From: Vicinamibacteria bacterium
GTDB taxonomy: Bacteria > Acidobacteriota > Vicinamibacteria > Fen-336
Reading direction: 5' to 3'
Length of the DNA stretch: 64,000 bases
Assembly: GCA_035691285.1 (NCBI GenBank)
Contig: DASSJI010000034.1
Span: 12,358-76,357, forward strand
Shown: positions 9,082-38,335 of the stretch, one piece after another
Position numbering within the stretch: the stretch's first letter is position 1
Layout of the letters: each line of letters starts with the position of its first letter
Translations under genes and position numbers: made by a program
The notes under the pieces: generated by a model
What the model was told of the DNA's origin: nothing
Database searches by the model: none
Seen by the model: the letters and a program-made list of their open reading frames with translations, nothing else

Positions 9082-12000
9082 CCCATGTCCCTGAGACGAA
9101 GGACTCGCTTCACGAACGGGTCGCCGAGCTTCAAGGTGCGCCGCTGCTGGAGCAGGGGCTTGGGCCCGCACACCTCCGTGAAGTCGCACAGGTCGCAGGA
9201 CTGGGGCTCCTGGACGAACAGGCCCGAGGCAATGGCGTCCGCGAGCCCGCGCAGCAGCGTGCGGAAACCCTCGCCCTCGACCGCGGCGGGGTCGAACACG
9301 ACGCGTCGGCCGCCGTCGACGTAGTCGAGGAAGGCCTCCACGACGCGCTCCTCCGGGAACAGCTCGCGGGCCGCGAGGACGTAGAAGGGGATCTGGAGCT
9401 GGCGGCCGCCCTTGAGGAAGCCGCCGTCGTCCCTGAAGGGCGCGCGCCCGGTCTTGTAGTCTCGCAGCACCAGGCCGCCTTCGGGCCTGCGGTCGATCCG
9501 ATCGATGCGCCCCGAGATGCGGATCGCGCGGCCGTCGCCCAGGTCGATCGCGACGGGCTCCTCGCGCCAGGGCTCGCGGTTGCCCTCGGGCGCGGGCAGG
9601 CCGAAGCCCACCTCGAACCAGGCGGGCGTGCGCTTGTCGGCCTCCGCGGCCAGGCGTTCGAGCCAGGCCAGGGCGGTGGCCCGGAAGCGCGCCTTCTCGC
9701 GCTCCCAGAGGCTCGTGAAGCGCGGCGGGCTTCCCTCGACGAGCGCCTGCAGGGCGGCTTCGCACATCTCCAGGAGCCGGTCCTGGGAGGCGGCGTCGTT
9801 CGTGACGGGAAGCTGGCCCTGCTCGCGCCGCTCGCGCAGGAACTCCTCCGCCACCCTGTGGAAGAGGTTCCCGCGCTCGAGCGGCTCGAGGCGCTTGCGT
9901 TCCTCGGGGACCTCGCGCGCCTCGAGGCGCAGCACGTGCTCGAGCAGGTACTGGAAGCCGCAGCGGGCCCAGGTCGCGAGGCGCGTCGCTGAGAGCACCA
10001 GGCCCGGCCGCGAGGGGTCGAGGCGCTCCAGGAGGCGGGCCGCGTCCAGGGCGCCTTCGCCGTCCCGGGGCGAGAAGGCCACGAGGCCGTCGTAGGGCGT
10101 GAGGTGCCTCGACCAGCGGGCCAGGCTGGCGAGGCGGGACTGCCTGAAGAACCGCGAGCCCTGGGCCACGGCGAGGGCGGCCTCCCTTCCGCCCTTGCGG
10201 ACGCGGGCGCGGTCGCGCTCGCCCGCGTCGAGCGCCTCTTCGGCCGGGAGCAGGTCCTCGTCGTCCTCGCTCACGCGTGCGTGGAGCTCCGAGAGACCGA
10301 GGGGCTGCGCGGCGAGCGTCGAGGCCGCCGCCACGAAGAACAGCGACGGCATGCGCTCGCGTCCCGAGCGCGGGTCGGCGCGGGGATAGCTCAGGACGAG
10401 CTTCTCCGTGGCCTGGGACACGGCGCGATGGAAGGCGCGGCGCGCCTCGCGCAAGCGGTCCTGGGTCGTGGCCAGCGCCGCCGCGGCGGGGGGCGCGGCG
10501 TCGAAGAGCCCGAGCTGGCCGGCCTGCGTGGGACGGGCCGGCGCGGGGGGGGCCAGGGCCTCACGCTCTGCGTCGAGCAGGAAGGGGTCGGGGCGCGGCG
10601 CGCCCGGGAAGCCGCCCTCGCCGAGGCCAGGGAAGGCCAGCACGCGGAACGTGAGGCCCGCCATCGCGTCCATGGCCCCGACGTGGACCGCGCCGCCCGA
10701 GACCGGGGGCAGCGGCACGCGCTCCCACTCGAAGCGGGCCAGCAGCACGCTCTCGAGCTCCGCGGGAGTGGCGCGGGCGCCGCCGAGGCCGGCCAGGTCG
10801 TGGAGCACCTCGAGAACCGCCTCGCGATCGCGCTCCTCGCCCACGAAGCGATCGAGAGCCGCCCGCAGGCGCTGCGACCATTCCGACCAGCTCGCCTCGC
10901 CGGACAGGGCACCGAGGGTCTCGGCCAGCGCCTCGACCAGACGCTCGAGGTCCTGCGCGTCCGCGAGGCGCCGCTCGCGGCGCGCGCGCCGAGCCGGGTC
11001 GCGCTCGCCCCGGGCGGCGGCGGCCTCGTCGCGCAGCAGCACTCGCAACCCGGCCCGCCAGCGGTCGAGGCCCGACACCACCCGTGCGTCGCGGGAGAGC
11101 TGGTCCCAATGGCCGGCGCGCAAAGCGGCTCCCGGCCGCAGCAGCCGCTCGAGGGGCAGCGGCGCGAAGCTCAGGAACTCGAGGACCGCCGAGCGCTCGA
11201 GGCCGCGGCAGCGCAGCAGCAGGAGCAGCGAGCGCGCAGCGCGGCCGTAGCGCAGCGGCAGGGAGGGATGCAGCCGGTACGGGACGCCGAGCCGCTCGAG
11301 AAGGTCGGAGAACAGCGGCGCGTACTCCGCCGGCCGGGCCAGCACGATGCCCATCTGCTCGAAGGGCACGCCGCGGCGCGCCTCGCGCAGCAGGCGCCGG
11401 GCGATGGACCGGGCCTCGGCCGCCTCGCCGGGCGCCGTCAGCAGCTCGACCGAGCCGTCCTCCACGGGCTCGCCCACGGCGGGCTCGAAGAGGCTCGTGC
11501 GCAGGCGCCGGAGGCCGGCCGGCGGCTCCTCGGGCGCCACGCTCCCGAGCAGCGTCTCGGACCAGTCCACGGCGGCGATGCCCACGCCCTCGGCCCACGC
11601 GGCGAACGAGCCGTCGCGCACGCCCGGCGGGCGGAGGCGTTCCAGCCGGACGAGCCGGTGGCTGCGGGCCACGGCCTCGAGGAAGCGGCGATCGAGGGCG
11701 TCGGTCTCGACGTCGTCGACCACGAGCAGCGTGGCGCCGCGCAGGAAGGGCGAGTCCGGGGCGGACTCAGCGGCGGCGGCGAGGAGCGTCGCGGGATCGG
11801 CGCGTCCCTCGTGCTCCGCGTGGAATGCGCGGTACAGGAACGCCAGGGCGCGCCGCCGCGCGGCGTCCTCGGGCGTCGGGGCCTCCTGCGCGGCGAGCGC
11901 CTCGAGGGCGTCGGGGGCAAGGCCGGCGAGCCGCAGCTCGTGCAGGGTGCGCGCCAGCGCCGCCGCCACCGGAGCCCGGGGGGCTCCCTCGGGAAGGGTG

Positions 12001-12251
12001 AGGCCGTGGGGAGCGTCGAGCAGGCGCGCCGCAAGCAGCGCGTCGTGGCCGGGGTCCCACGCCTGGAGCCCGCGGCCGAGCAGCTCGGGCTCGGCGATGG
12101 CGCGCGCCAGCTCGCGCGGCTTCATCGCGTAGACGAAGGCGAGCGCCCGCCCGGTCTCCGCCAGGCGCCGCGGCCACTCCAGCGCGGCGGCCCGGGAGGG
12201 CACGACGAGGATCGTGGGGCCCTGGGACGGGCCTACGGCGCTTCCTCCCAC
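9078..12251 (-). CDS. addB: AddB-type helicase-nuclease subunit (degenerate helicase, C-terminal Fe-S PD-(D/E)XK nuclease)
   Basis: C-terminal RDYKTGRAP and CDLCDFTEVCG Fe-S/nuclease motifs typical of AddB; N-terminal degenerate P-loop region PTILVVPSRAAALEW; likely GTG start ~12251 (first 220 aa of track ORF are artefact); translationally coupled to addA. Confidence 0.8.
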   Translation of the reverse strand: MGGSAVGPSQGPTILVVPSRAAALEWPRRLAETGRALAFVYAMKPRELARAIAEPELLGRGLQAWDPGHDALLAARLLDAPHGLTLPEGAPRAPVAAALARTLHELRLAGLAPDALEALAAQEAPTPEDAARRRALAFLYRAFHAEHEGRADPATLLAAAAESAPDSPFLRGATLLVVDDVETDALDRRFLEAVARSHRLVRLERLRPPGVRDGSFAAWAEGVGIAAVDWSETLLGSVAPEEPPAGLRRLRTSLFEPAVGEPVEDGSVELLTAPGEAAEARSIARRLLREARRGVPFEQMGIVLARPAEYAPLFSDLLERLGVPYRLHPSLPLRYGRAARSLLLLLRCRGLERSAVLEFLSFAPLPLERLLRPGAALRAGHWDQLSRDARVVSGLDRWRAGLRVLLRDEAAAARGERDPARRARRERRLADAQDLERLVEALAETLGALSGEASWSEWSQRLRAALDRFVGEERDREAVLEVLHDLAGLGGARATPAELESVLLARFEWERVPLPPVSGGAVHVGAMDAMAGLTFRVLAFPGLGEGGFPGAPRPDPFLLDAEREALAPPAPARPTQAGQLGLFDAAPPAAAALATTQDRLREARRAFHRAVSQATEKLVLSYPRADPRSGRERMPSLFFVAAASTLAAQPLGLSELHARVSEDDEDLLPAEEALDAGERDRARVRKGGREAALAVAQGSRFFRQSRLASLARWSRHLTPYDGLVAFSPRDGEGALDAARLLERLDPSRPGLVLSATRLATWARCGFQYLLEHVLRLEAREVPEERKRLEPLERGNLFHRVAEEFLRERREQGQLPVTNDAASQDRLLEMCEAALQALVEGSPPRFTSLWEREKARFRATALAWLERLAAEADKRTPAWFEVGFGLPAPEGNREPWREEPVAIDLGDGRAIRISGRIDRIDRRPEGGLVLRDYKTGRAPFRDDGGFLKGGRQLQIPFYVLAARELFPEERVVEAFLDYVDGGRRVVFDPAAVEGEGFRTLLRGLADAIASGLFVQEPQSCDLCDFTEVCGPKPLLQQRRTLKLGDPFVKRVLRLRDMG

Positions 12252-13009
12252 TTCTTGCGGATCCGCTCGCGTTCGCCCGAGGCCACGAGCTCGCGCACCG
12301 CGGCCTGCACCTGCGCCGCGAGGCCGGCGTCGCTCCGCCGCAAGCCCACGTGGTAGCCCAGACGGTTGAGGGTCTCGCCCACGGTCTTGAAGGAGCCGTC
12401 CCGGGCCACGCGCCACTTCACGTACGGCGAGTCGTACAGGATCGCGCCGAGCTTGTCCGCCTTGAGGTCGTCGAAGAGCGTCTCCTGCTTGTCGTAGACC
12501 TTGAGGGCGCCCGCGCCCACGGAGCGCAGCGTGCGCTCCACCACCTGGGACTGGAAATGGCCCACCGTGATCTTCTTCAGGTCGCCGAGACCCGTCACCT
12601 TCGCATCGTCGGCCCGCGCCGCGAGCAGGAGACCCCACTCGTAGTAGGCCGTCGAGGCGGCGATCTCGGGCGGCGTCCGCGGGCCGGGCGTCCAGGCGCA
12701 GACGATCGCGTCGATGCGCCCTCGTACCAGGGCCCGCTCCAGGTCGAACCACGCCACCGGCACGATCACGAGCGGGCGCCCGAGCCGCTGGCTCAGGAAC
12801 TGGGCGACGTCGACGTCGATGCCCGTCGCCTTCTTGAGCTGCGCCTCGGTCACCCGCGGGTCGGCGTTCGCGTCCTCGGCCGAGTAGTCGAGCCCCGGCA
12901 CGAAGGACCACGGCGGCGAGCGCGTGTCCATCCCCACCCGGAAGACCGGGTCCGCGGCGCTCGCGGAGACGGTCGCGCCGAGGGCGAGGGCGACGGCCAA
13001 GGAGCGCAT
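12233..13009 (-). CDS. ABC transporter substrate-binding protein (family 3, amino-acid type), secreted
   Basis: ATG at 13009 (MRSLAVALALGATVSASAADP signal peptide); periplasmic binding protein type 3 features; stop overlaps presumed addB start region. Confidence 0.75.
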   Translation of the reverse strand: MRSLAVALALGATVSASAADPVFRVGMDTRSPPWSFVPGLDYSAEDANADPRVTEAQLKKATGIDVDVAQFLSQRLGRPLVIVPVAWFDLERALVRGRIDAIVCAWTPGPRTPPEIAASTAYYEWGLLLAARADDAKVTGLGDLKKITVGHFQSQVVERTLRSVGAGALKVYDKQETLFDDLKADKLGAILYDSPYVKWRVARDGSFKTVGETLNRLGYHVGLRRSDAGLAAQVQAAVRELVASGERERIRKKWEEAP

Positions 13010-15723: not shown

Positions 15724-15767
15724 CTTAGGCGCGCGGGTCCGAAGTAAGATCCCTGCGAGGAGGCGTG

Positions 15768-17693
15768 ATGGCAGAGCGGCGTTACGATCGGCTGACCCAT
15801 CCCCTGGTGCGCCGGGACGGCGCCCTCGTGCCGGCGAGCTGGGAGGAGGCGCTCGCGCGGGCGGCGGACGGCTTCCGTCCCTACCAGGGCGCGCGCGCGA
15901 CGTCGGGGTTCGGAGTCTTCAGCTGCTCGAAGGCGACGAACGAGATGAACTTCCTGGCGCAGAAGCTCGCGCGCCAAGTGATGGGCAGCCACAACATCGA
16001 CTCGTGTAACCGCACCTGACACGCCCCCAGCGTCGTCGGTCTGGCGACGGTGTTCGGGGCAGGCGGCGGAACGAGCTCGTACGCTGAGGTCGAGAAGGCC
16101 GACCTCATCGTGCTGTGGGGGTCGAACGCCCGGGAGACGCACCCGATCTTCTTCCATCACGTCCTCAAGGGCGTGCGGAACGGGGCGCGGCTCTACGTGA
16201 TCGACCCGCGCCGGACGAGCTCCGCCCAGTGGGCCGACGGCTGGCTGGGTCTCGACGTGGGCGCCGACATCGCGCTCGCCCACGCCGTGGGGCGCGAGAT
16301 CCTCGCCGCCGGGCTCCACAACCGGGCCTTCGTGGAGCGGGCCACGTCGGGCTTCGAGGCCTACCGCGCGTGCGTCGAGCCTTACACCCTCGCGGAAGGA
16401 GAGCGGCTGACCGGCGTGCCCGCGACGCTGATCCGCGAGCTCGCCCACGCGTATGCCCGCGCAGACCGCGCCCAGCTCTGCTGGACGCTGGGAATCACGG
16501 AGCACCACAACGCCGTGGACAACGTCCTCGCCCTCATCAACCTCGCGCTCCTCACCGGGCACGTGGGCCGCTACGGCTCCGGCCTCAACCCGCTGCGGGG
16601 CCAGAACAACGTCCAGGGCGGCGGCGACATGGGGGCGATCCCGAACAAGTACCCGGGCTTCCAGGACATCGAGGATCCCGGGGCGCGGGCGAAGTTCGAG
16701 AAGGCCTGGGGCGTCGCGCTGCCTCCGAAACGCGGCTGGCACTTGACGCAGATGTTCGAGGCGATGGAGCGCGGCGAGCTCCGCTCGCTGTACGTGATCG
16801 GCGAGAACCCGTGCCAGTCCGAGGCCGACATGCACCGCGCGACGAAGCTCCTGGCGGGTCTGGAGCATCTCGTGGTGCAGGACCTCTTCATGACCGCCAC
16901 CGCCCGGATGGCCCACGTCGTCCTCCCCGCGGCCGCGGCGTGGTGCGAGAGCGAGGGCACGGTCACGAGCAGCGAGAGGCGCGTCCAGCGCGTGCGCAAG
17001 GCCATGGATCCGCCCGGAGAGGCGCGCCAGGACATCGACATCCTGTGCGGCATGGCGCGGGCGCTCGGGCGCGACTGGGGCCGGGTGAGCGCGGAGGCGG
17101 CCTGGGACGAGCTGCGCACCCTCTCGCCGATGCACGCAGGCATGTCGTACGCCCGCCTCGAGGCGCAGGGCGGGATCCAGTGGCCGTGTCCGGACGAGGG
17201 CCATCCCGGCTCGCCGTTCCTCCACGGCCGGCTCTGGGAGGAGCCCGTGCAGGGCCCGCGGGCGCCGTTCTCGGCCGTCGCGTTCGAGCCGCCCGTGGAC
17301 GAGCTGAGCGACGAGTTCCCGATCCGCCTCACGACCGGTCGCCGGCTCGACTCGTTCAACACCGGGGTCCAGACCGCGGGCTACACGTCGCCGCTCCGGC
17401 GCGGCGAGAGCCTCGACCTGTCCCCCGAGGACGCGAGGCGATACTCGGTGAGGGAGGGCGAGACCGTGGTGGCGCGCTCCCGCCGCGGCGAGGTCCGCGT
17501 CCCGGTCCGCATCGACTCGAGCCTGCGCCCGGGCCTGGCGTTCATGACGCTGCACTTCCCCGACGACGTGGCGACGAACCTCCTGACCATCGACGCGACC
17601 GACCCGAAGTCCGGCACCGCCGAGTTCAAGGCCACGGCGATCCGCATCGAGAAACCGGCGGCTCCCGAGCCGGCTCTGGCAGGCCGCGGCTGA
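15768..17693 (+). CDS. fdhA: formate dehydrogenase catalytic (molybdopterin, bis-MGD) domain, selenocysteine-containing (UGA at 16017-16019 read as Sec); lacks N-terminal Fe-S domains
   Basis: GGAGG SD then ATG 15768; track ORFs 15765..16019 and 16050..17693 are the same frame separated only by TGA; context GSHNIDSCNRT-U-HAPSVVGL matches the Sec/Cys active-site region of FdhF/FdsA (NID.CAR.(U/C)HGPSVAGL); downstream molybdopterin oxidoreductase motifs. Confidence 0.8.
16017..16019 (+). other. in-frame UGA decoded as selenocysteine (predicted)
   Basis: Position corresponds exactly to Sec140 of E. coli FdhF; reading frame continues without interruption; SECIS-like hairpin follows. Confidence 0.6.
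16020..16060 (+). promoter_or_regulatory. candidate bacterial SECIS element (mRNA hairpin immediately 3' of UGA)
   Basis: cacGCCCCcagCGTCGtcGGUCUGgCGACGgtgttcGGGGC: nested stems GCCCC/GGGGC and CGTCG/CGACG with apical loop containing GGUCUG, resembling the fdhF SECIS loop (GGUCUG region) that binds SelB. Confidence 0.45.
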
Positions 17694-19549
17694 TGGACCT
17701 CCGCTTCCGCGAGGCGCGGCCGACCGCCGCCGAGCGCCGCGCCGTCGACGCCGTCCTCGGGCCGCCCAGCTCGGGCTGGGAGGGCGGGCGACGCCGGGCA
17801 GAGAGCGACGGCCGCGCCGCGAGCGCGGGCCACGATGCACGCGCCCGCCGCCACCTGCTGTTGCCCGCGCTCCACGCCGCCCAGGGCCGCGTCGGGTGGA
17901 TCAGCGAGGGCGCCCTCAACTACATCTGCCAGCGCCTGACGCTGCCGCCGGCCGAGGCGTACGGCGTGGCGTCGTTCTACGGGATGCTGAGCCTGGAGCG
18001 GCGCGCGCCGGCCGTGGCCCACGTCTGCGACGACCTCGTCTGCCGCCTGAACGGCGCGGAGGCCCTGTGCGGTCGGATGGAGCACGCGCTGGGGCCCGAG
18101 GGCGGGCGCGGGCGGGCCGGCGCGACGTGGGTGCGCAGCCCTTGCCTCGGGCTGTGCGAGCAGGCCCCGGCCGCGCTCGTCTCCCGGGCGGGGGCGCCGC
18201 CCGTCGAGACGGCCGTGGGCGGCGCGACCGCCGAGGGCCTCGTCGCGGCGCTCAGGAGCGAGGTCCAGCCCGCGCCGGCGAAGGCCCGCCTGCCGCAGCA
18301 CGGCGAGCCGGGCCTCCGGCTGCTGCGCCGCGTCGGACGCGTGGACCCCGAGAGCCTGGACGACTACCGGGCGCGGGACGGCTACCGGGCGCTGCGCGTC
18401 GCGCTCGATCTCGGCCCCGAGGGCGTGATCCGCGAGGTGACCGACTCCAGGCTCTTCGGGCGCGGCGGCGCCGCCTTTCCGACAGGACGCAAGTGGGACG
18501 CCGTCGCCAAGGCCCCGGTGCGCACCCACTACCTCGTGTGCAACGCCGACGAGTCCGAGCCGGGCACCTTCAAGGACCGCGTGCTGCTGGAGGAGGACCC
18601 GTTCGCGATCGTCGAGGCGATGACGATCGCGGCCTACGCGACGGGCTGCGAGAAGGGCTTCCTGTACGTGCGCGGCGAGTACCCTCTCGCCGCCCAGCGG
18701 CTCTCCCGCGCCGTCGCCGCCGCCCGGTCGCGCGGCTACCTCGGCGACGACGTGATGGGCCACGGCTTCCGCTTCGACATCGAGGTGCGCAGGGGAGCGG
18801 GCGCCTACATCTGCGGCGAGGAGACCGCGCTCTTCAACTCGATCGAGGGCTACCGCGGCGAGCCCCGCAACAAGCCGCCGTTCCCGACCGTGGCCGGCCT
18901 CTTCGGCAAGCCCACCGTGGTCAACAACGTCGAGACGCTGGCCAACGTCCTCGAAGTCATGCTGGCAGGGGGCCCGGCCTACGCGGGCAACGGAACCGCG
19001 CGCTCGACGGGCACCAAGCTCTTCTGCGTGACGGGGCATGTCGGACGGCCCGGCCTCTACGAGGTGCCCTTCGGCGTCTCCATGGCCGACCTGCTGGCGC
19101 GGGCCGGAGGCCTGCGCGAGGGCAGGAGCCTCAAGGCTGTGCTGCTGGGGGGCGCCGCGGGGACCTTCCTCACGCCCGACGAGACCCGCGTCCCGCTGAC
19201 GTTCGAGGACACCTGGGCGATCGGGGCGAGCCTCGGCTCGGGCGTGGTGCTGGCCCTGGACGAGAGCGCCGACCTGATGGACCTGTCGCTGCGCATCGCG
19301 GCGTTCTTCCGCCACGAGTCGTGCGGACAGTGCGTCCCGTGCCGCGTCGGCACCGTGCGGCAGGAGGAGGCTCTGCGCCGCATCGCCAGGGGCCGGCTCC
19401 TGGGCACCCCGAAGGACGAGGCCCGGCTGCTCGCCGACCTCGGCCAGGCCATGCGCGATGCCTCGATCTGCGGCCTGGGGCACACCGCGTCGAGCGCCGT
19501 GGCCTCGGCGGTCGCCAAGCTCGGCCTCCTCGACGGAGGGCGCCCGTGA
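17693..19549 (+). CDS. NAD-linked formate dehydrogenase beta subunit, fused NuoE-like (2Fe-2S) + NuoF-like (FMN/NAD, 4Fe-4S) protein
   Basis: ATG 17693 overlaps fdhA stop (TGATG); N-term NuoE motifs (LLPALHAAQ...YGVASFYGM...CLGLCEQAP), then NuoF motifs GRGGAAFPTGRKW, NADESEPGTFKDR, YICGEETALFNSIEG, ESCGQCVPCR. Confidence 0.85.
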   Translation: MDLRFREARPTAAERRAVDAVLGPPSSGWEGGRRRAESDGRAASAGHDARARRHLLLPALHAAQGRVGWISEGALNYICQRLTLPPAEAYGVASFYGMLSLERRAPAVAHVCDDLVCRLNGAEALCGRMEHALGPEGGRGRAGATWVRSPCLGLCEQAPAALVSRAGAPPVETAVGGATAEGLVAALRSEVQPAPAKARLPQHGEPGLRLLRRVGRVDPESLDDYRARDGYRALRVALDLGPEGVIREVTDSRLFGRGGAAFPTGRKWDAVAKAPVRTHYLVCNADESEPGTFKDRVLLEEDPFAIVEAMTIAAYATGCEKGFLYVRGEYPLAAQRLSRAVAAARSRGYLGDDVMGHGFRFDIEVRRGAGAYICGEETALFNSIEGYRGEPRNKPPFPTVAGLFGKPTVVNNVETLANVLEVMLAGGPAYAGNGTARSTGTKLFCVTGHVGRPGLYEVPFGVSMADLLARAGGLREGRSLKAVLLGGAAGTFLTPDETRVPLTFEDTWAIGASLGSGVVLALDESADLMDLSLRIAAFFRHESCGQCVPCRVGTVRQEEALRRIARGRLLGTPKDEARLLADLGQAMRDASICGLGHTASSAVASAVAKLGLLDGGRP

Positions 19550-20409
19550 GCGAGGGGCACGCGCGCCGCCCCGTCGAGATCACGATCGACGGCCGTCCGG
19601 TGACCGTCGCCGAGGGCACGACGCTGCTCGAGGCCTGCCGCGCCCAGGGCATCGACACGCCCACGCTCTGCTTCCTGGAGAACCTGACGCCGGTGAACGT
19701 GTGCCGCGTGTGCGTCGTGGAGGTGGAGGGATCCCGCACCCTCGTGCCCGCGTGCTCGCGCGTCGCCGAGCCGGGCATGCGGGTGAGGACCGACTCCGAG
19801 CGCGTGCGCCACTCCCGCCGCCTGGTGCTGGAGCTCCTGGCCTCGTCGGTGGACCTCTCCACGGCGCCCGAGGCCCGGGCGTACCTGGCGCGCTACGAGG
19901 CCAGGCCCGAGCGCTTCGGCTCCGAGGCCGCCACGGTGCGCCAGCCGGCGAAGGTCGACAACGAGCTCTACGTCCGCGACTACTCGAAGTGCATCCTCTG
20001 CTACAAGTGCGTCGAAGCCTGCGGCGAGGACGCGCAGAACACCTTCGCGATCGCCGTGGCCGGGCGCGGCTTCGGCGCGGGCATCTCCACCGAGTTCGGG
20101 ACGCCGCTGCCCGACTCCGCGTGCGTCTACTGCGGCAACTGCATCGGCGTGTGCCCGACCGGCGCGCTCATGTTCAAGAGCGAGCACGACCTGCGCCGGG
20201 CGGGGCGCTGGGACGAGTCGCGCCAGACCCGGACCACGACGATCTGCGCCTATTGCGGCGTCGGCTGCAACCTCACGCTCCACGTCCAGGACAACCGGAT
20301 CGTGAAGGTCACCTCGCCCCTCGACCACGACGTCACGAACGGCCACCTGTGCATCAAGGGCCGCTTCGGCTGGCAGTTCGTCCAGAGCCGCGACGACGAC
20401 GACGTCTAG
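19546..20409 (+). CDS. formate dehydrogenase alpha-subunit N-terminal Fe-S fragment (NuoG-like 2Fe-2S + 4Fe-4S domains plus first Cys cluster of the Mo domain)
   Basis: GTG 19546 overlaps stop of previous gene (GTGA); 2Fe-2S ferredoxin-like CxxC..C, CILCYKCVEAC and CVYCGNCIGVCP ferredoxin motifs, and CAYCGVGCNL...LCIKGRFG which is the start of the bis-MGD domain; protein ends where fdhA (15768) begins in alignment to FdhF. Confidence 0.8.
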   Translation: MSEGHARRPVEITIDGRPVTVAEGTTLLEACRAQGIDTPTLCFLENLTPVNVCRVCVVEVEGSRTLVPACSRVAEPGMRVRTDSERVRHSRRLVLELLASSVDLSTAPEARAYLARYEARPERFGSEAATVRQPAKVDNELYVRDYSKCILCYKCVEACGEDAQNTFAIAVAGRGFGAGISTEFGTPLPDSACVYCGNCIGVCPTGALMFKSEHDLRRAGRWDESRQTRTTTICAYCGVGCNLTLHVQDNRIVKVTSPLDHDVTNGHLCIKGRFGWQFVQSRDDDDV

Positions 20410-20410
20410 G

Positions 20411-20776
20411 CTAGACCGGCTGCGCCTGCTCCACAGGCGTCACCGCGGCCTGGTCCTCCTCGCCGGTGCGGATGCGGTAGACCTTCTCGACGGGCAGCAC
20501 GAAGATCTTGCCGTCGCCGACATCCCCGGTGCGGGCCGCGGCCAGGATCGCCTCGACGGTCGGCGCGACGAAGTGGTCCGAGACGCCGATCTCGAGGCGC
20601 ACCTTCTCGGACAGCTCCATCTTCACGCTGGTGCCGCGGTAGGTCTCGACGCGCTCGGTCTCGCCGCCGTGGCCCTGGACGCGGTTGATGGTCAGCCCGC
20701 GGACCTCGGCGCGAAACAGCGCCTCCAGGACCTCGCCCAGCTTCTCCGGGCGGACGACCGCCACCACGAGCTTCAT
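20411..20776 (-). CDS. glnK: P-II family nitrogen regulatory protein
   Basis: 121 aa MKLVVAVVRPEKLGEVLEALFRAEVRGLTINRVQGHGG...; P-II fold pattern; 4-nt overlap with upstream amt gene. Confidence 0.8.
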   Translation of the reverse strand: MKLVVAVVRPEKLGEVLEALFRAEVRGLTINRVQGHGGETERVETYRGTSVKMELSEKVRLEIGVSDHFVAPTVEAILAAARTGDVGDGKIFVLPVEKVYRIRTGEEDQAAVTPVEQAQPV

Positions 20777-22059
20777 GCGCGGCCTCCCTCCATGGCCGGG
20801 CTCGCGACCGGCGCCGGCCCTGACGCCTCGGCCTCGGGCAGGATCAGGATCGCGCCCTCCTCGCGCGCGTAGGCCTCCTCACCGTGCTGGCTCACGTCGA
20901 GGCCGAGGCCCTCCTCGCGCGGCGAGGCGCGCAGCGCCGTCCCGAGCGCGATGAGCCGGAGCAGCACGAACGTCATGCCGGCGCTCCACGCGGCGGCGAC
21001 TGCCACGGCCAGGAGCTGTACGGCGAGCTGGCGGGCGCCGCCGTACAGGAGGCCGTCGGCGGGACTGGCCCACGCCTTCGACGCGAACACGCCGGTGAGC
21101 AGGGCGCCGAGCGTGCCCCCGAGGCCGTGAGCCGCCACCACGTCCAGCGAGTCGTCGAGGCGGGTGCGGGCGCGGAGCAGCAGGCCGAAATAGCTGGGCA
21201 GCGCCGCCAGGGCGCCCAGGGCGAGGGCGAGGAGCGGGCTCACGTAGCCGGCCGCCGGCGTCACCGCCACGAGACCCACCACGATGGCCGTGGCGGCGCC
21301 CACCGCGGTCACGCGGCCGCTTCGCGAGAAGTCGAGGAGCGTCCACGCCACGAGCGTCGCGGCGGGAGCGAGCAGGGTGTTGGCGAAGGCGAGGGCGGCC
21401 TGGCCGTTCGCGGCGAGGGCGCTGCCGGCGTTGAAACCGAACCAGCCGAACCACAGCAGCCCGGCGCCGAGAACCACGAACGGGACGTTGTGGGGGAGCA
21501 CCGCCTGCCGGGCGTAGTCCTTGCGGGGACCCACGACCAGGGCCGACACCAGCGCCGCGGCGGCGGCGTTCACGTGCACCACCGTCCCGCCGGCGAAGTC
21601 GAGGGCGCCGAGCCGGGCCAGGAAGCCGTCGCCCCACACCCAGTGGGCGAGCGGCGCGTAGACGAGCAGGCTCCAGCCCGTGACGAACGCGAGGTACGCG
21701 CCGAAGCGCATGCGCTCGACGATCGCGCCCGAGACGAGCGCGGCCGTGACGATCGCGAACGTCGCCTGGAAGGCGAAGAAGGCCAGAGCCGGAACGCTGC
21801 CCCGCGCCTCCATGCCCACGCCGCGGAGCAGCGCGTGGCCGAGGCCGCCGCTCAGGACGGAGCCCGGGGCGAACGCGAGCGAATAGCCCAGGAGCGCCCA
21901 GGCGAGGCCCACGCAGCCGGCCGCCGACACGCTCATCATCAGCGTGTTCAGGGCGTTCTTGGAGCGCACGAGACCGCCGTAGAAGAAGCCCAGGGCCGGC
22001 GTCATCAACAGCACCAGCGCGGCCGAGGTCAGGACGAACGCGGTGTCGCACCCACTCAT
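20773..22059 (-). CDS. amtB: ammonium transporter (Amt family)
   Basis: 428 aa, 11-TM Amt signature (MSGCDTAFVLTSAALVLLMTPALGFFYGGLVRSKN...); amt-glnK operon arrangement. Confidence 0.9.
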   Translation of the reverse strand: MSGCDTAFVLTSAALVLLMTPALGFFYGGLVRSKNALNTLMMSVSAAGCVGLAWALLGYSLAFAPGSVLSGGLGHALLRGVGMEARGSVPALAFFAFQATFAIVTAALVSGAIVERMRFGAYLAFVTGWSLLVYAPLAHWVWGDGFLARLGALDFAGGTVVHVNAAAAALVSALVVGPRKDYARQAVLPHNVPFVVLGAGLLWFGWFGFNAGSALAANGQAALAFANTLLAPAATLVAWTLLDFSRSGRVTAVGAATAIVVGLVAVTPAAGYVSPLLALALGALAALPSYFGLLLRARTRLDDSLDVVAAHGLGGTLGALLTGVFASKAWASPADGLLYGGARQLAVQLLAVAVAAAWSAGMTFVLLRLIALGTALRASPREEGLGLDVSQHGEEAYAREEGAILILPEAEASGPAPVASPAMEGGRA

Positions 22060-22231
22060 GGCACCTCCTGGCCTCCCGTGACAGCAATTCGCGTGCGCAC
22101 GCTTCCTCGCGACGACCCGTGTGCCCCAATCTCCTGAGCCGTCTCAGGTTGGCGGCGCGGTGGCGGCGCGATCGGCCGCCTCCGGGTCCGACAGGAATGT
22201 CGGAGCGCGGGGCGGGAGCGACGGGGCTGTT

Positions 22232-23767
<1,536 letters not shown>

Positions 23768-36153: not shown

Positions 36154-36183
36154 TTGACGCCCTTCCGGGGGGTCCCCTAAGAT
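36154..36183 (+). promoter_or_regulatory. candidate sigma70-type promoter upstream of nuoL (TTGACG-N18-TAAGAT)
   Basis: cgcTTGACGcccttccggggggtcccCTAAGATcgccgcg; SD GCAGGAG then GTG 36218. Confidence 0.35.
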
Positions 36184-36217
36184 CGCCGCGCTCCCCTTAA
36201 CGCAGGAGTTCCCAAGC

Positions 36218-38323
36218 GTGAGCCCGTTCGTCGCTCTTATCCCGCTCCTTCCGCTCCTCGGCTTCCTGTTCAACCTGACCGTCGGCGTGCGCGTGCTGAC
36301 GAAGCGGCACGGCCACGGCGAGGCACAGCACGGCCCGTCGCCGATCATCGGCCTGGTGGCCTGCGGCTCGGTGCTCGCCTCGCTGCTCGTCTCGATCGCC
36401 GCCGTCGTCCAGGCCCGGGCGCAGCCCGGAGGCGTCCTGGTGGAGACGCTCTGGACCTGGCTGCCCGGCGGCGCCGCCGGGGTCGCGCCGTTCCAGATCG
36501 AGTGGGCCTACCAGGTCGATCCGCTCTCGTCGGTGATGCTGCTCGTCGTCAACTTCGTGAGCTTCCTGATCCACGTCTACTCGACGGGCTACATGGCCCA
36601 CGATCCCGGCTACGCGCGCTACATGGCGTACCTGAACCTCTTCATGTTCGCCATGCTGACGCTGGTGCTCGGCGCCAACTACCCGATCCTCTTCATCGGC
36701 TGGGAGGGCGTGGGCCTGTGCTCCTACCTGCTGATCGGCTTCTGGTTCGAGAAGCAGAGCGCCTCGGACGCGGGCAAGAAGGCGTTCATCGTGAACCGCA
36801 TCGGCGATGCCTTCTTCATCCTGGGCATGCTGCTCCTGTTCGAGACCTTCGGAAGCCTGGACTTCCGGACGGTGTTCGCCGCCGCCGAGCACCTGCCCGC
36901 CGAGCACGCCTGGGGCGGCACGCTCACCCTCGCCTGCCTGTTCCTGTTCCTCGGCGCCTGCGGCAAGAGCGCGCAGATCCCGCTCTACGTCTGGCTGCCC
37001 GACGCCATGGAGGGCCCCACCCCGGTGTCGGCCCTGATCCACGCGGCCACCATGGTGACGGCCGGCGTGTACATGGTGGCGCGCTCCTCGGTCCTCTACG
37101 CCCACGCGCCGAACGCGCTCCTGGTCGTGGCCGTGGTCGGCGCCGCGACGGCGCTCTTCGCGGCCTCGATCGGTCTCGTCCAGTACGACATCAAGCGCGT
37201 GCTGGCCTACTCCACGGTCAGCCAGCTCGGCTACATGTTCCTGGCGTGCGGCGTCGGAGCCTTCGCGGCAGGCGTCTTCCACCTGATGACCCACGCGTTC
37301 TTCAAGGCGCTGCTGTTCCTCGGCTCGGGCTCGGTGATCCACGCCATGTCGGGGGAGCAGGACATGCGGAAGATGGGCGGCCTGAAGGAGAAGCTGCCCG
37401 TCACGCACCTCACGATGTTCGTCGGCTGCCTGGCCATCGCCGGCGTGCCGTTCCTGGCCGGCTTCTTCTCGAAGGACGAGATCCTGTGGTCGGCCTACAA
37501 GCTCGGCGGCTACGGCCGCTGGGTATGGATGATCGGCCTGGTGACCGCCGGCATGACCGCCTTCTACATGTTCCGCCTCTTCTACATGACCTTCCACGGC
37601 GCCTTCCGGGGGACGCCCGAGCAGGCGCACCACGTCCACGAGTCGCCTTCCTCGATGACCGTGCCCCTCGTGGTGCTGGCGGGAGGATCGGCGCTGGCCG
37701 GCTACCTGGGCCTGCCGGCGGTGACGGGCCTGCCCAACGTGTTCGAGCACTTCCTCGAGCCCGTGCTCGAGCCCGCCCAGCACGCGCTGCGCGAGCTGTT
37801 CACGAGGCCCGTGCCCGGCCACGGCGTGGAGTGGGCCCTCATGGGGACGAGCGTCGCCTTTGGTCTCCTCGGCATATTCGTCGGGCGCCACTTCTTCAAA
37901 ACGCGCCCGGAGATTCCCGAGCGCCTGGCGAGGGCGTTCGCCGGGCCGCACCGCGTCCTGCTGAACAAGTACTACGTTGACGAGCTGTACGGCGCCGCTT
38001 TCGTGCGCGGCGTCGCGCTCGGCGGCGGCGGGATGCTCCACGGCCTCGACCGTCATGTGGTGGACGGCGGCGACGGCGAGGTGCGCCCCGGCCTCGGCGT
38101 GAACGGCCTGGCCTGGCTCGCCCGGGACATCGTGGCGCGCCTTTCCAACTTCTGGGACAAGTGGATCGTCGACGGCGGCTTGACCAAGGTCCCGCCCCTG
38201 GTCCTCGAGAACCTGAGCTACGTCTTCCGGGCCGTGCAGAACGGCCTCGTCCAGCACTACGCCCTGGCCATGTTCATCGGCGTGTTCCTGCTGATCGCCA
38301 TGACCCTCGGCCTTCCGTACTAG
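36218..38323 (+). CDS. nuoL: NADH-quinone oxidoreductase subunit L (antiporter-like)
   Basis: 701 aa, NuoL/ND5 signature incl. long C-terminal extension. Confidence 0.85.
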   Translation: MSPFVALIPLLPLLGFLFNLTVGVRVLTKRHGHGEAQHGPSPIIGLVACGSVLASLLVSIAAVVQARAQPGGVLVETLWTWLPGGAAGVAPFQIEWAYQVDPLSSVMLLVVNFVSFLIHVYSTGYMAHDPGYARYMAYLNLFMFAMLTLVLGANYPILFIGWEGVGLCSYLLIGFWFEKQSASDAGKKAFIVNRIGDAFFILGMLLLFETFGSLDFRTVFAAAEHLPAEHAWGGTLTLACLFLFLGACGKSAQIPLYVWLPDAMEGPTPVSALIHAATMVTAGVYMVARSSVLYAHAPNALLVVAVVGAATALFAASIGLVQYDIKRVLAYSTVSQLGYMFLACGVGAFAAGVFHLMTHAFFKALLFLGSGSVIHAMSGEQDMRKMGGLKEKLPVTHLTMFVGCLAIAGVPFLAGFFSKDEILWSAYKLGGYGRWVWMIGLVTAGMTAFYMFRLFYMTFHGAFRGTPEQAHHVHESPSSMTVPLVVLAGGSALAGYLGLPAVTGLPNVFEHFLEPVLEPAQHALRELFTRPVPGHGVEWALMGTSVAFGLLGIFVGRHFFKTRPEIPERLARAFAGPHRVLLNKYYVDELYGAAFVRGVALGGGGMLHGLDRHVVDGGDGEVRPGLGVNGLAWLARDIVARLSNFWDKWIVDGGLTKVPPLVLENLSYVFRAVQNGLVQHYALAMFIGVFLLIAMTLGLPY

Positions 38324-38335
38324 GAGCCGCATCGC

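What the first reader, a model, noticed from the sequence alone, without database searches (positions are those of the whole stretch)
15768..20409. Split and gene-order-permuted selenocysteine NAD-type formate dehydrogenase
The FDH alpha subunit is encoded in two pieces in reversed order. The Mo/bis-MGD catalytic domain (15768..17693, containing the in-frame UGA) comes first. A fused NuoE+NuoF diaphorase follows (17693..19549). The N-terminal NuoG-like Fe-S domain plus the first Cys cluster of the Mo domain is a separate last ORF (19546..20409). The last ORF ends (…LCIKGRFGWQFVQSRDDDDV) exactly where the first begins (MAERRYDRLTHPLVRRDG…) when aligned to FdhF/FdsA, so the protein is cleanly fissioned at a domain linker and the halves swapped around the beta subunit. 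All three genes are translationally coupled (TGATG, GTGA overlaps). Canonical fdsGBA loci encode G, B, then an intact A.
Basis: partly seen in the sequence, partly recalled or inferred. Interest (0 to 1): 0.75.

Follow-up and report, generated by a model that had tools for sequence, protein, structure and literature searches.

The report
Split, reordered selenocysteine formate dehydrogenase
This soil acidobacterium encodes a formate-oxidising enzyme whose large catalytic subunit is cut into two genes placed in swapped order around the NADH-binding subunit; the layout is real and shared by at least 80 species in about nine phyla, and I found no description of it in the literature.

Summary
Three coupled + strand genes encode:
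- g1 (15768-17693): the Mo/W-pterin catalytic domain, with an in-frame UGA.
- g2 (17693-19549): a fused NuoE+NuoF flavoprotein.
- g3 (19546-20409): the NuoG-like Fe-S module plus the catalytic subunit's own first [4Fe-4S] domain (FS0).

g3 aligns to residues 23-307 of R. capsulatus FdsA and g1 to residues 306-936, so the fission is clean.

It is not an assembly artefact. The same order recurs in 67 complete loci from Acidobacteriota, Chloroflexota, Actinomycetota (including cultured Streptomyces) and other phyla. It also holds in members only about 40% identical (44%).

The UGA is conserved in 61 loci and replaced by Cys only in Streptomyces. It is followed by a conserved hairpin whose GGUCUG lies in the same register as in the E. 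coli fdhF SECIS.

The host is a Vicinamibacteria MAG, not Myxococcota. The family has also lost the off-pathway His-ligated cluster A4. fdhD follows g3 in many relatives.

Most likely this is a cytoplasmic heterotrimeric formate:NAD(P)+ oxidoreductase in which FS0 is supplied in trans. That makes it a new variant of a known enzyme kind. Assembly, activity and nucleotide specificity are inferred, not shown.

The parts
15757..15763 (+). Shine-Dalgarno GAGGAGG of g1, 4 nt before the ATG. An in-frame TAG at 15726-15728 rules out any upstream extension of g1.
   Evidence: sequence read directly
15768..17693 (+). g1: C-terminal about two thirds of the FDH alpha subunit (641 codons). It holds the Mo/W-bis-pterin binding domains, Sec84-His85 and Arg277, and has no FS0 domain.
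   Evidence: TIGR01591 positions 50-672 matched (643.5 bits). Aligns to FdsA residues 306-936 and to E. coli FdhH residues 61-689.
16017..16019 (+). In-frame UGA read as selenocysteine (the Mo/W ligand), in the context CNRT-U-HAPS.
   Evidence: TGA at the aligned codon in 61 related loci; TGC/TGT (Cys) in 7 loci, all Streptomyces. It aligns with Sec140 of E. coli FdhH.
16032..16048 (+). SECIS-like hairpin GUCGUC-GGUCU-GGCGAC. GGUCUG sits at positions 22-27 counted from the U of UGA.
   Evidence: The loop and its synonymous sites are invariant in 60/60 sequences. Helix cells are 93.8% paired, with one clean G-C/C-G swap inside the 6-bp core. Same register as E. coli fdhF.
17693..19549 (+). g2: fused NuoE-like ([2Fe-2S], Cys112/117/151/155) and NuoF-like diaphorase. 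It carries FMN motif GRGGA 256-260, GAGAYICGEE 368-377, and a [4Fe-4S] at Cys544/547/550/593. Its start overlaps the g1 stop (TGATG).
19546..20409 (+). g3: N-terminal third of the FDH alpha subunit (287 aa). It holds a [2Fe-2S] (Cys42/53/56/70), two ferredoxin-type [4Fe-4S] (149-159, 193-203) and the FS0 [4Fe-4S] domain (Cys234/237/241/269) with Lys271. It lacks the His-ligated cluster. A GTGA overlap joins it to g2, and its stop is TAG.

Best explanation
The three genes encode one soluble, cytoplasmic, metal-dependent formate dehydrogenase of the NuoEFG-related (FdsABG / Fdh1AB) kind, built from three polypeptides instead of an intact alpha.

Proposed electron path (inferred from homology to R. 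capsulatus FDH):
1. Formate is oxidised at the Mo/W-bis-pterin centre of g1, which is ligated by Sec84 with His85 and Arg277 nearby.
2. Electrons cross a subunit interface to FS0, carried on the C-terminal domain of g3, next to the conserved Lys271.
3. They then pass through the two ferredoxin-type [4Fe-4S] clusters and the [2Fe-2S] of g3.
4. They reach the [4Fe-4S] and FMN of g2, where NAD(P)+ is reduced. The NuoE-type [2Fe-2S] of g2 lies off-path.

The reverse reaction, CO2 reduction, is chemically possible. UGA84 is recoded through a SECIS hairpin immediately downstream.

The layout is inherited, not a local accident. A single fission after the FS0 domain, together with relocation of the C-terminal half in front of the beta gene, created a three-gene cassette. 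That cassette spread widely, probably by horizontal transfer, among soil-associated phyla.

Status of the steps:
- Shown: domain content, the clean complementary fission, conservation of the order, the Sec/Cys alternation and the SECIS-like element.
- Inferred: physical reassembly, electron path, direction of catalysis, nucleotide specificity.
For: Fission and domain content:
- Complementary, non-overlapping alignment of g3 and g1 to FdsA (23-307 and 306-936) and to TIGR01591 (1-52 and 50-672).
- All cofactor motifs of the on-path chain are present.
- Active-site U-H and LRGQNNVQG are present.

Conservation:
- The g1-g2-g3 order holds in 67 complete loci. It also holds in distant members at 58% identity and about 40% identity (39% by BLASTP; 44%).
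- Split members form one clade in a rough NJ tree.
- All 120 closest g3 homologues end 13-34 residues after the KGRF motif and keep the 2Fe-2S, two fd-type and FS0 motifs.
- The stop codon of g3 varies (TGA 27, TAG 23, TAA 17), so it is a true stop.
- The g1 stop and g2 start overlap or abut in many loci.

Selenocysteine:
- TGA in 61 loci versus Cys codons in 7 Streptomyces loci.
- The SECIS loop is invariant, including the rare Gly codon GGT (5 of 159 Gly codons in this operon). Cys-type loci have GGC there instead.
- The hairpin is conserved and in the same register as E. coli fdhF.

Formate link:
- fdhD lies next to the cassette in 31 loci.
- fhs and folD lie next to it in L087.
- A monocarboxylate / oxalate-formate-family MFS transporter was identified upstream of g1 in L001. 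Homologous ORFs lie upstream of g1 in about 7 further loci.
Against: - There is no biochemical or expression evidence.
- A Mo/W-bisPGD enzyme with FS0 supplied in trans has no characterised precedent that I could find, so reassembly is inferred only.
- The AlphaFold model of g3 was poor (mean pLDDT 54), and no multimer prediction was possible.
- The 64-kb window holds no tRNA-Sec and no fdhD. No selA/B/D appeared among the ORFs I scanned, and several stretches of the window were not scanned.
- The hairpin's folding energy is not exceptional in this 74% GC sequence (z = -0.46). No Rfam family matched. Support for the SECIS is therefore comparative only.
- g1 alone scores just below the curated TIGR01591 cut-off (643.5 versus 666.25).
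- Two relatives (L021, L063) have g2-g3 without an adjacent g1.
Confidence: 0.8

Rival explanations
1. Assembly or rearrangement artefact, or a decaying pseudogene: an originally intact fdhA broken and shuffled in this MAG only.
For: The window comes from a metagenome-assembled genome. Gene callers break g1 at the UGA.
Against: The same fission point and order occur in 67 complete loci from independent projects, including closed chromosomes and cultured Streptomyces. The proteins are 53-79% identical across phyla, and the Fe-S and active-site motifs checked are conserved. Start signals and coupled junctions are intact.
Confidence: 0.01
2. g1 is not a formate dehydrogenase but another FdhF-like molybdoenzyme, such as an assimilatory nitrate reductase. 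On this reading g2-g3 is a general HoxFU-like NAD(P)H diaphorase serving it or other partners.
For: g1 also matches NasC/NasA profiles, at 396 and 360 bits, far below their cut-offs. g3's best NCBIfam rows are hydrogenase A6 N-terminus and HoxU. L021 and L063 carry g2-g3 without an adjacent g1. An ammonium transporter and a P-II gene lie downstream in the window.
Against: The best profile is Fdh-alpha, at 643.5 bits plus 56.4 bits from g3. The best solved relatives are all FDHs. The Sec/Cys-His dyad and the Arg of LRGQNNVQG are FDH hallmarks. fdhD is adjacent in 31 loci, and fhs/folD in L087. The Amt/P-II genes are on the opposite strand and are not conserved neighbours.
Confidence: 0.06
3. 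An electron-bifurcating or confurcating Hyl/Bfu-type FDH that also uses ferredoxin. g3 would play the role of HylA.
For: A separate Fe-S subunit recalls HylA of HylCBA-FdhA (described in PMC5736913). The best solved matches of g2 include bifurcating HydB-like and StnB-like subunits.
Against: g2 ends with the NuoF [4Fe-4S] region at residue about 608 of 618. It lacks the extra C-terminal ferredoxin-type clusters described for HylB. g3 carries FS0 itself rather than leaving it on the Mo subunit. No further Fe-S subunit is conserved next to the cassette.
Confidence: 0.05
4. The UGA is a genuine stop, and g1 is made as two separate products or only as the 547-aa downstream ORF.
For: Automatic gene calls split it this way. 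No Sec machinery was seen in the window.
Against: The codon aligns with the catalytic Sec/Cys. TGA is kept in 61 loci and replaced only by Cys codons. SECIS-like constraints act on synonymous sites. Coding periodicity is continuous across the codon.
Confidence: 0.03

Closest known systems
FdsABG(D), the NAD+-dependent Mo-FDH of Rhodobacter capsulatus / Cupriavidus necator (PDB 6tg9, 6vw7; PMC7171172)
   Same: Same cofactor chain: bis-MGD, FS0 (A1), two fd-type [4Fe-4S] (A2, A3), [2Fe-2S] (A5), NuoF [4Fe-4S] and FMN, plus an off-path NuoE-type [2Fe-2S]. g3 and g1 together align end to end with FdsA. g2 matches FdsB.
   Different: Alpha is one polypeptide there and two here, with the C-half gene moved in front of beta. 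FdsA uses Cys386 where g1 has Sec. FdsG and FdsB are separate there and fused here. The His117/Cys121/124/130 cluster A4 at the dimer interface is absent from all 120 family members checked. No fdsD was noticed here.
Fdh1AB (MeFDH1), the tungsten NAD-FDH of Methylobacterium extorquens (PDB 7e5z, 7vw6), and the FdhAB described in Chloroflexi (PMC5736913)
   Same: Per PMC5736913, the Chloroflexi FdhB is a single protein with NuoE-like and NuoF-like domains, like g2. That the MeFDH1 beta subunit is such a fusion is my own knowledge, not checked here. The enzymes are soluble and NAD(P)-linked. g1 and g3 both hit MeFDH1 alpha.
   Different: Alpha is intact there, and the gene order is not permuted.
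E. coli formate dehydrogenase H (FdhF, PDB 1aa6) and its SECIS
   Same: Sec-His dyad, catalytic Arg, Lys next to FS0, and a UGA followed by a hairpin with GGUCUG at positions 22-27.
   Different: FdhF carries its own FS0 at residues 1-60 on the same chain. It has no NuoG-like extension and delivers electrons to hydrogenase 3, not to NAD+.
HylCBA-FdhA (FdhF2) of Clostridium acidurici-type organisms
   Same: The NuoG/[FeFe]-hydrogenase-like Fe-S module is a separate polypeptide from the Mo subunit (PMC5736913).
   Different: There FdhA is described as keeping its own Fe-S-binding domains, so the boundary lies elsewhere. Here FS0 travels with the Fe-S module. Per that paper, HylB has two extra 4Fe-4S domains, HylC is a separate subunit, and the complex is bifurcating.
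Formylmethanofuran dehydrogenase FwdB/FwdD
   Same: A natural two-gene split of an FDH-like Mo/W-bisPGD catalytic subunit. PMC7171172 notes that the FdsA C-terminus is replaced by an additional subunit in Methanothermobacter wolfeii.
   Different: That split removes the C-terminal domain, which I take to be the Molydop_binding domain (domain IV) from my own knowledge. It does not remove the N-terminal FS0 domain, and no permutation around a diaphorase gene occurs.

Membership tests
Metal-dependent formate dehydrogenase alpha (TIGR01591 / FdhF-FdsA type) | Molybdopterin and Molydop_binding domains with full-length similarity to FDH catalytic subunits | tested here: met
   Pfam scores 222 and 85 bits. 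The best solved relatives are all FDHs, with E-values 1e-142 to 1e-110.
Metal-dependent formate dehydrogenase alpha (TIGR01591 / FdhF-FdsA type) | Score above the curated equivalog cut-off on one polypeptide | tested here: not met
   g1 scores 643.5 against a cut-off of 666.25, because profile positions 1-49 are missing. g3 supplies positions 1-52 at 56.4 bits. The two halves together would exceed the cut-off.
Metal-dependent formate dehydrogenase alpha (TIGR01591 / FdhF-FdsA type) | Sec or Cys metal ligand followed by His, plus the catalytic Arg | tested here: met
   U84-H85 and R277 in LRGQNNVQG. The Sec/Cys alternation is seen across relatives.
Metal-dependent formate dehydrogenase alpha (TIGR01591 / FdhF-FdsA type) | FS0 [4Fe-4S] domain (four Cys) with adjacent Lys, on the same chain as the pterin domain | tested here: not met
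   FS0 (Cys234/237/241/269, Lys271) is on g3, not on g1. It is present in the system, but in trans.
Metal-dependent formate dehydrogenase alpha (TIGR01591 / FdhF-FdsA type) | [quoted passage not shown] | not testable with these tools
   Indirect support only: fdhD adjacent in 31 relatives and fhs/folD adjacent in L087.
NAD+-linked FdsABG-type FDH | NuoF-like subunit with FMN and NAD(H) motifs and a [4Fe-4S]; NuoE-like [2Fe-2S] | tested here: met
   GRGGA, GAGAYICGEE, CxxCxxC...C, and Cx4C...Cx3C.
NAD+-linked FdsABG-type FDH | Single alpha subunit carrying A1-A5, including the His-ligated A4; gene order G-B-A | tested here: not met
   Alpha is split and permuted. The A4 motif is absent in 0/120 family members.
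NAD+-linked FdsABG-type FDH | Specificity for NAD+ rather than NADP+ | not tested
   The acidic GEE motif is kept. Equivalence to FdsB Glu259 was not established by alignment.
Bacterial selenoprotein gene (SelB-dependent UGA recoding) | In-frame UGA at a position occupied by Cys in homologues | tested here: met
   61 TGA, 7 TGC/TGT.
Bacterial selenoprotein gene (SelB-dependent UGA recoding) | Hairpin immediately downstream, with a conserved G/U-containing apical loop at the fdhF-like distance | tested here: met
   The loop GGUCU is invariant in 60 sequences and in the same register as E. coli fdhF. The thermodynamic z-score alone is not significant.
Bacterial selenoprotein gene (SelB-dependent UGA recoding) | selA, selB, selD and tRNA-Sec in the same genome | not testable with these tools
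   There is no tRNA in the window, and no sel genes appeared among the ORFs scanned. Several stretches of the window were not scanned, and the rest of the genome was not available.
Bfu/Hyl-type electron-bifurcating FDH | HydB/HylB-like subunit with additional C-terminal ferredoxin-type [4Fe-4S] clusters | tested here: not met
   g2 ends at the NuoF cluster region and has no Fer4 domains. The unsplit relative in L085 does have them.

The most novel reading that the evidence does not exclude
The fission and reordering may be functional rather than neutral.

- Putting the selenoprotein gene first, translationally coupled to the genes behind it, could make UGA84 decoding a checkpoint. Without selenium, ribosomes would stop at codon 84, and polarity would prevent wasteful synthesis of the Fe-S and flavin subunits.
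- Detaching FS0 from the pterin domain could let the Mo/Sec half be loaded and sulfurated (by FdhD) on its own, and then plug into a pre-assembled g2-g3 diaphorase.
- That module might also serve other partners. L021 and L063 have g2-g3 without an adjacent g1.
- On this reading, a plug-in, A4-less and possibly monomeric Sec-FDH would be the standard way that dominant, largely aerobic soil phyla oxidise formate.
Probability: 0.12. Interest if true: 0.7.

Novelty: new variant of a known kind. Interest (0 to 1): 0.5.

Why it matters
- **Interest in the enzyme class.** Metal-dependent FDHs are studied intensively for CO2 reduction and NADH regeneration. All structurally characterised NAD-linked ones that I found have an intact alpha subunit.
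- **A natural experiment.** Here the first Fe-S cluster and its conserved Lys sit on a different polypeptide from the pterin cofactor. This bears on inter-domain electron transfer, cofactor insertion and subunit assembly.
- **Distribution.** The family is common in abundant soil phyla: Acidobacteriota, Chloroflexota, Dormibacterota, Eremiobacterota, Gemmatimonadota and Actinomycetota. It is mostly selenium-dependent. In this MAG, NCBI names g2 and g3 only generically ('2Fe-2S iron-sulfur cluster-binding protein', 'NAD(P)H-dependent oxidoreductase subunit E'), and g1 scores just below the curated Fdh-alpha cut-off. Surveys that rely on such names or cut-offs could therefore undercount formate oxidation capacity and selenoprotein use.
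- **Tractable material.** Cys-type copies in cultured Streptomyces can be used for experiments.

Tried and rejected
- **Single-sequence folding of the region after the UGA.** The energy was no better than shuffled sequence in this GC-rich DNA, so I relied on comparative evidence instead.
- **Rfam scan of the window.** No family matched.
- **tRNA scan.** Nothing found, so Sec machinery could not be confirmed locally.
- **Structure prediction.** g3 with a 33-sequence alignment gave mean pLDDT 54. That is too poor for a fold search, so none was run.
- **Plasmid collection search.** Only canonical intact fdhF/fdsA genes below 40% identity were found, and no annotation of the split type.
- **Conserved neighbours.** Most clusters were wrong-frame shadow ORFs of a high-GC genome. 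After choosing frames by GC3, only fdhD emerged as a recurrent neighbour, plus an ORF cluster upstream of g1 in about 8 loci that is a monocarboxylate / oxalate-formate-family MFS transporter in L001. The window's own divergent MFS gene is a generic drug-type transporter, and I do not count it as part of the system.
- **Literature.** Seven full-text searches and several papers read. No description of an FDH alpha split after FS0, or of this gene order. The library lacks most subscription-journal papers, so absence is not proof.
- **Exact-sequence look-ups.** P0001 was not found in the contig index. The two g1 ORF fragments were not in the protein collection.
Full report
**1. What is in the sequence**

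The region lies in DNA of about 74% GC. Third-codon-position GC of 0.9-1.0 identifies three co-directional + strand genes. It also shows the reading frame running straight through the TGA at 16017-16019.

- g1 starts at ATG 15768. A GAGGAGG Shine-Dalgarno lies 4 nt upstream, and an in-frame TAG lies 13 codons upstream, so no N-terminal extension is possible. It ends at TGA 17691-17693.
- g2 starts at ATG 17693, in a TGATG overlap with the g1 stop, and ends at TGA 19547-19549.
- g3 starts at GTG 19546, in a GTGA overlap with the g2 stop and with a GGAGG just upstream. It ends at TAG 20407-20409.

Flanking genes are on the other strand. Upstream is a generic MFS transporter. Downstream are P-II and an ammonium transporter. 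The three genes therefore form a self-contained unit.

**2. Domain content and the fission point**

Pfam and NCBIfam results:

- g1 holds Molybdopterin and Molydop_binding domains. It matches positions 50-672 of the 672-position Fdh-alpha profile TIGR01591.
- g2 holds a NuoE-type thioredoxin-like [2Fe-2S] domain, followed by the NuoF FMN, SLBB and [4Fe-4S] domains.
- g3 holds Fer2_4, two ferredoxin-type [4Fe-4S] motifs and the Molybdop_Fe4S4 (FS0) domain. It matches TIGR01591 positions 1-52.

Against solved structures, g3 aligns to residues 23-307 of R. capsulatus FdsA (6tg9_A) and g1 to residues 306-936 of the same chain. Against E. coli FdhH read from NC_000913.3:

- g3 ends ...CIKGRFGWQFVQSRDDDDV, where FdhH has ...CLKGYYGWDFINDTQ.
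- g1 begins MAERRYDRLTHPLVRRDG, where FdhH has ...TPRLKTPMIRRQRGG.

All cofactor ligands expected for the on-path electron chain are present:

- In g1: U84-H85 and R277.
- In g3: the [2Fe-2S] Cys, two CxxCxxCxxxC motifs, and the FS0 Cys with Lys271.
- In g2: the NuoE Cys, GRGGA, GAGAYICGEE and the NuoF cluster.

g2 ends at the NuoF cluster. It has no extra ferredoxin domains.

**3. Is it an artefact?**

No.

- g3 is 100% identical to NCBI HET7291373.1 and g2 to HET7291372.1. Both come from a 91,940-nt contig of a Vicinamibacteria (Acidobacteriota) MAG.
- The 120 best database homologues of g3 are all 278-392 aa long. All have the same truncated architecture, with no Molybdopterin domain.
- A scan of one genome per GTDB species returned the tool's maximum of 80 loci. 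tblastn with g1, g2 and g3 shows the order g1-g2-g3 throughout.
- 67 loci hold all three genes essentially complete. Most of the remainder are cut by contig ends.
- The loci come from Acidobacteriota (Terriglobia, Bryobacterales, Thermoanaerobaculia), Chloroflexota, Dormibacterota, Eremiobacterota, Actinomycetota (Acidimicrobiia, Gaiellales, Streptosporangiaceae and seven cultured Streptomyces), Gemmatimonadota, Planctomycetota, Verrucomicrobiota and Eisenbacteria. Several are closed chromosomes.
- The stop codon of g3 varies among TGA, TAG and TAA. It is therefore a real terminator and not a second recoding site.
- Flanking genes are not conserved, so the unit behaves as a three-gene cassette.

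In a search of 50%-identity cluster representatives, the split type collapses into a few representatives of 286-321 aa. The next relatives, at about 37-43% identity, are intact FdhA proteins of 735-957 aa or UGA-truncated N-terminal fragments of about 360 aa. A rough neighbour-joining tree of the g3-like region puts all split members in one clade.

Distant split members keep the permuted order: P0122 at 58% identity (L089), and P0209 at about 40% (39% by BLASTP; 44%; L087). An intact relative, P0203 (L085), sits in the canonical order nuoE-nuoF-fdhA-fdhD.

I infer a single old fission-plus-relocation event followed by wide lateral spread. The proteins are 66-79% identical between phyla as distant as Acidobacteriota and Actinomycetota.

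**4. The UGA**

- The codon aligned with g1 position 84 is TGA in 61 loci and TGC or TGT in seven, all of them Streptomyces. One further locus is a frameshifted assembly.
- The 51 nt starting at the UGA were aligned for 60 TGA-type loci (A1).
- Positions 21-27 (C GGUCU G) are invariant, including the synonymous third positions 21, 24 and 27. Nearby synonymous sites 9, 12, 36 and 42 vary freely.
- The Gly codon in the loop is GGT in 60/60 sequences, although GGT accounts for only 5 of 159 Gly codons in this operon. Cys-type Streptomyces have GGC there.
- The flanking helix (columns 15-21 with 27-33) has 93.8% of cells paired, with U-A/U-G/C-G alternations and one clean G-C to C-G swap inside the 6-bp core. 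It exceeds all 500 column shuffles on the covariation score and beats the slid registers.
- In E. coli fdhF, GGUCUG occupies exactly the same positions, 22-27 from the U of UGA. From my own knowledge, G23 and U24 of that loop are the SelB-contacting bases.
- The folding energy alone is unremarkable (z = -0.46) and Rfam reports nothing. The case therefore rests on comparative data, and there it is strong.
- The window holds no tRNA-Sec, and I saw no sel genes among the ORFs scanned.

**5. Further features of the family**

- *(a) Loss of cluster A4.* g3 lacks the HxxxCxxCxxxxxC motif. None of the 120 homologues has it, while 119-120 keep each of the other motifs. In R. capsulatus FDH this motif (His117, Cys121, Cys124, Cys130) binds cluster A4. 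That cluster lies off the main pathway at the dimer interface and may connect the two protomers (PMC7171172). Its loss predicts a different quaternary structure but leaves the chain from bis-MGD to FMN intact.
- *(b) fdhD.* This gene lies next to the cassette in 31 loci, usually directly after g3. It encodes the sulfurtransferase needed for FDH cofactor maturation. There is none in this window.
- *(c) Formate-related neighbours.* The MFS gene upstream of g1 in L001 is of the monocarboxylate / oxalate-formate family. Homologous ORFs lie upstream of g1 in about seven further loci. L087 has fhs and folD upstream.
- *(d) Variation.* L050 and L052 have a DUF5946 gene inserted between g1 and g2. L021 and L063 have g2-g3 with unrelated genes upstream.

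**6. How it most likely works**

By homology to FdsABG, the electron path is:

1. Formate is oxidised at the Sec-ligated Mo or W centre of g1.
2. Electrons pass to FS0 on g3, across a subunit interface.
3. They continue through the two ferredoxin-type clusters and the [2Fe-2S] of g3.
4. They reach the NuoF cluster and FMN of g2, and then NAD(P)+.

g3 is the physical bridge between g2 and g1. Tight or overlapping junctions in many loci suggest coupled, stoichiometric translation. The domain content and its conservation are shown. Assembly, direction of catalysis and nucleotide preference are inferred.

I considered four rivals and rate each unlikely:

- An assembly artefact or pseudogene.
- A different molybdoenzyme, such as a nitrate reductase.
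- A Hyl-type bifurcating complex.
- A true stop at UGA.

The reasons are given under each rival explanation.

How the order arose is open. Tandem duplication of a beta-alpha operon followed by loss of both ends would give C-half, beta, N-half. That is the operon-level analogue of circular permutation. However, the frequent position of fdhD after g3 fits simple relocation of the C-half at least as well. Both are speculation.

**7. Comparison with known systems**

The enzyme works like FdsABG or Fdh1AB. It fails two membership features of that family as defined by the solved examples: a single alpha chain with FS0 in cis, and cluster A4.

- Fused NuoE-NuoF beta subunits are described for a Chloroflexi FdhAB (PMC5736913). 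I also know them from MeFDH1, although I did not check that here.
- Separate Fe-S subunits are known (HylA), and C-terminal splits of the catalytic subunit are known (FwdB/FwdD). In those cases FS0 stays with the pterin domain.
- I found no description of a split after FS0 or of this gene order in seven full-text searches. The library is incomplete.
- In this MAG, NCBI gives g2 and g3 generic names. g1 alone falls just under the curated Fdh-alpha cut-off.

**8. Verdict**

This is a new variant of a known kind. It is widespread, conserved, mostly selenium-dependent, and uncharacterised as far as I could find. Interest is moderate (0.5). It is a useful natural split for FDH enzymology and relevant to formate and selenium use in soil bacteria, but the chemistry is not new.

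Noticed in passing
window 19546-20409 (g3), residues about 99-110; family-wide: The His-x3-Cys-x2-Cys-x5-Cys motif is absent from g3 and from all 120 closest homologues. In R. capsulatus FdsA this motif binds the off-pathway, dimer-interface cluster A4.
   Followed up: yes
L064, L068, L070, L076, L077, L078, L080 (Streptomyces): Cultured Streptomyces species carry the same split, permuted cassette with Cys instead of Sec, and fdhD directly after g3. Their loop codon is GGC instead of GGU. These are tractable organisms for experiments.
   Followed up: partly
L021:5049-7822 and L063:3474-6424: In these two loci g2-g3 pairs are preceded by unrelated genes (Ig-like or galactose-binding-domain proteins), and no g1 lies within the fetched flanks. 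g1 may be elsewhere in the genome, or the diaphorase module may serve another partner.
   Followed up: partly
L050:4262-4783 and L052:4463-4945: A DUF5946 gene is inserted between g1 and g2 in two Chloroflexota loci.
   Followed up: no
L087:868-2216: In a distant split-family member (about 40% identical g3), formate-tetrahydrofolate ligase (fhs) and folD lie directly upstream of g1. This links the cassette to C1 metabolism.
   Followed up: no
L086:41-4258 (P0129): A 1405-aa protein whose Pfam list repeats the FdhA domain series (Fer2_4 ... Molydop_binding, then Fer2_4 again). It looks like a tandem fusion of two FdhA-like units, followed by separate nuoE and nuoF genes.
   Followed up: no
L035 (DATLRQ010000161.1): A contig carrying the bacterial-type cassette, about 70% identical to the window, is labelled 'Candidatus Micrarchaeaceae archaeon'. 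This is most likely a binning error.
   Followed up: no
window 36158-39964 (+): Two adjacent proton-antiporter-like genes (NuoL-like, 721 aa, and NuoM-like, 546 aa). I did not check whether they belong to a full complex I operon or to an Mrp-like or other module.
   Followed up: no
window 20411-23767 (-): A P-II gene, an ammonium transporter and a sigma-54 activator with a GAF domain lie convergent to the FDH cassette. They are not conserved next to it in relatives.
   Followed up: partly
window 9078-12911 (-): A long ORF (1277 aa) with only a C-terminal PD-(D/E)XK nuclease domain recognised, possibly AddB-like. GC3 supports the frame.
   Followed up: no
L004, L044, L087, L088: Several long-read metagenome assemblies show the cassette broken by many frameshifts. 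The 50%-identity representative library therefore contains numerous chimeric or fragmentary 'proteins' of this family.
   Followed up: no
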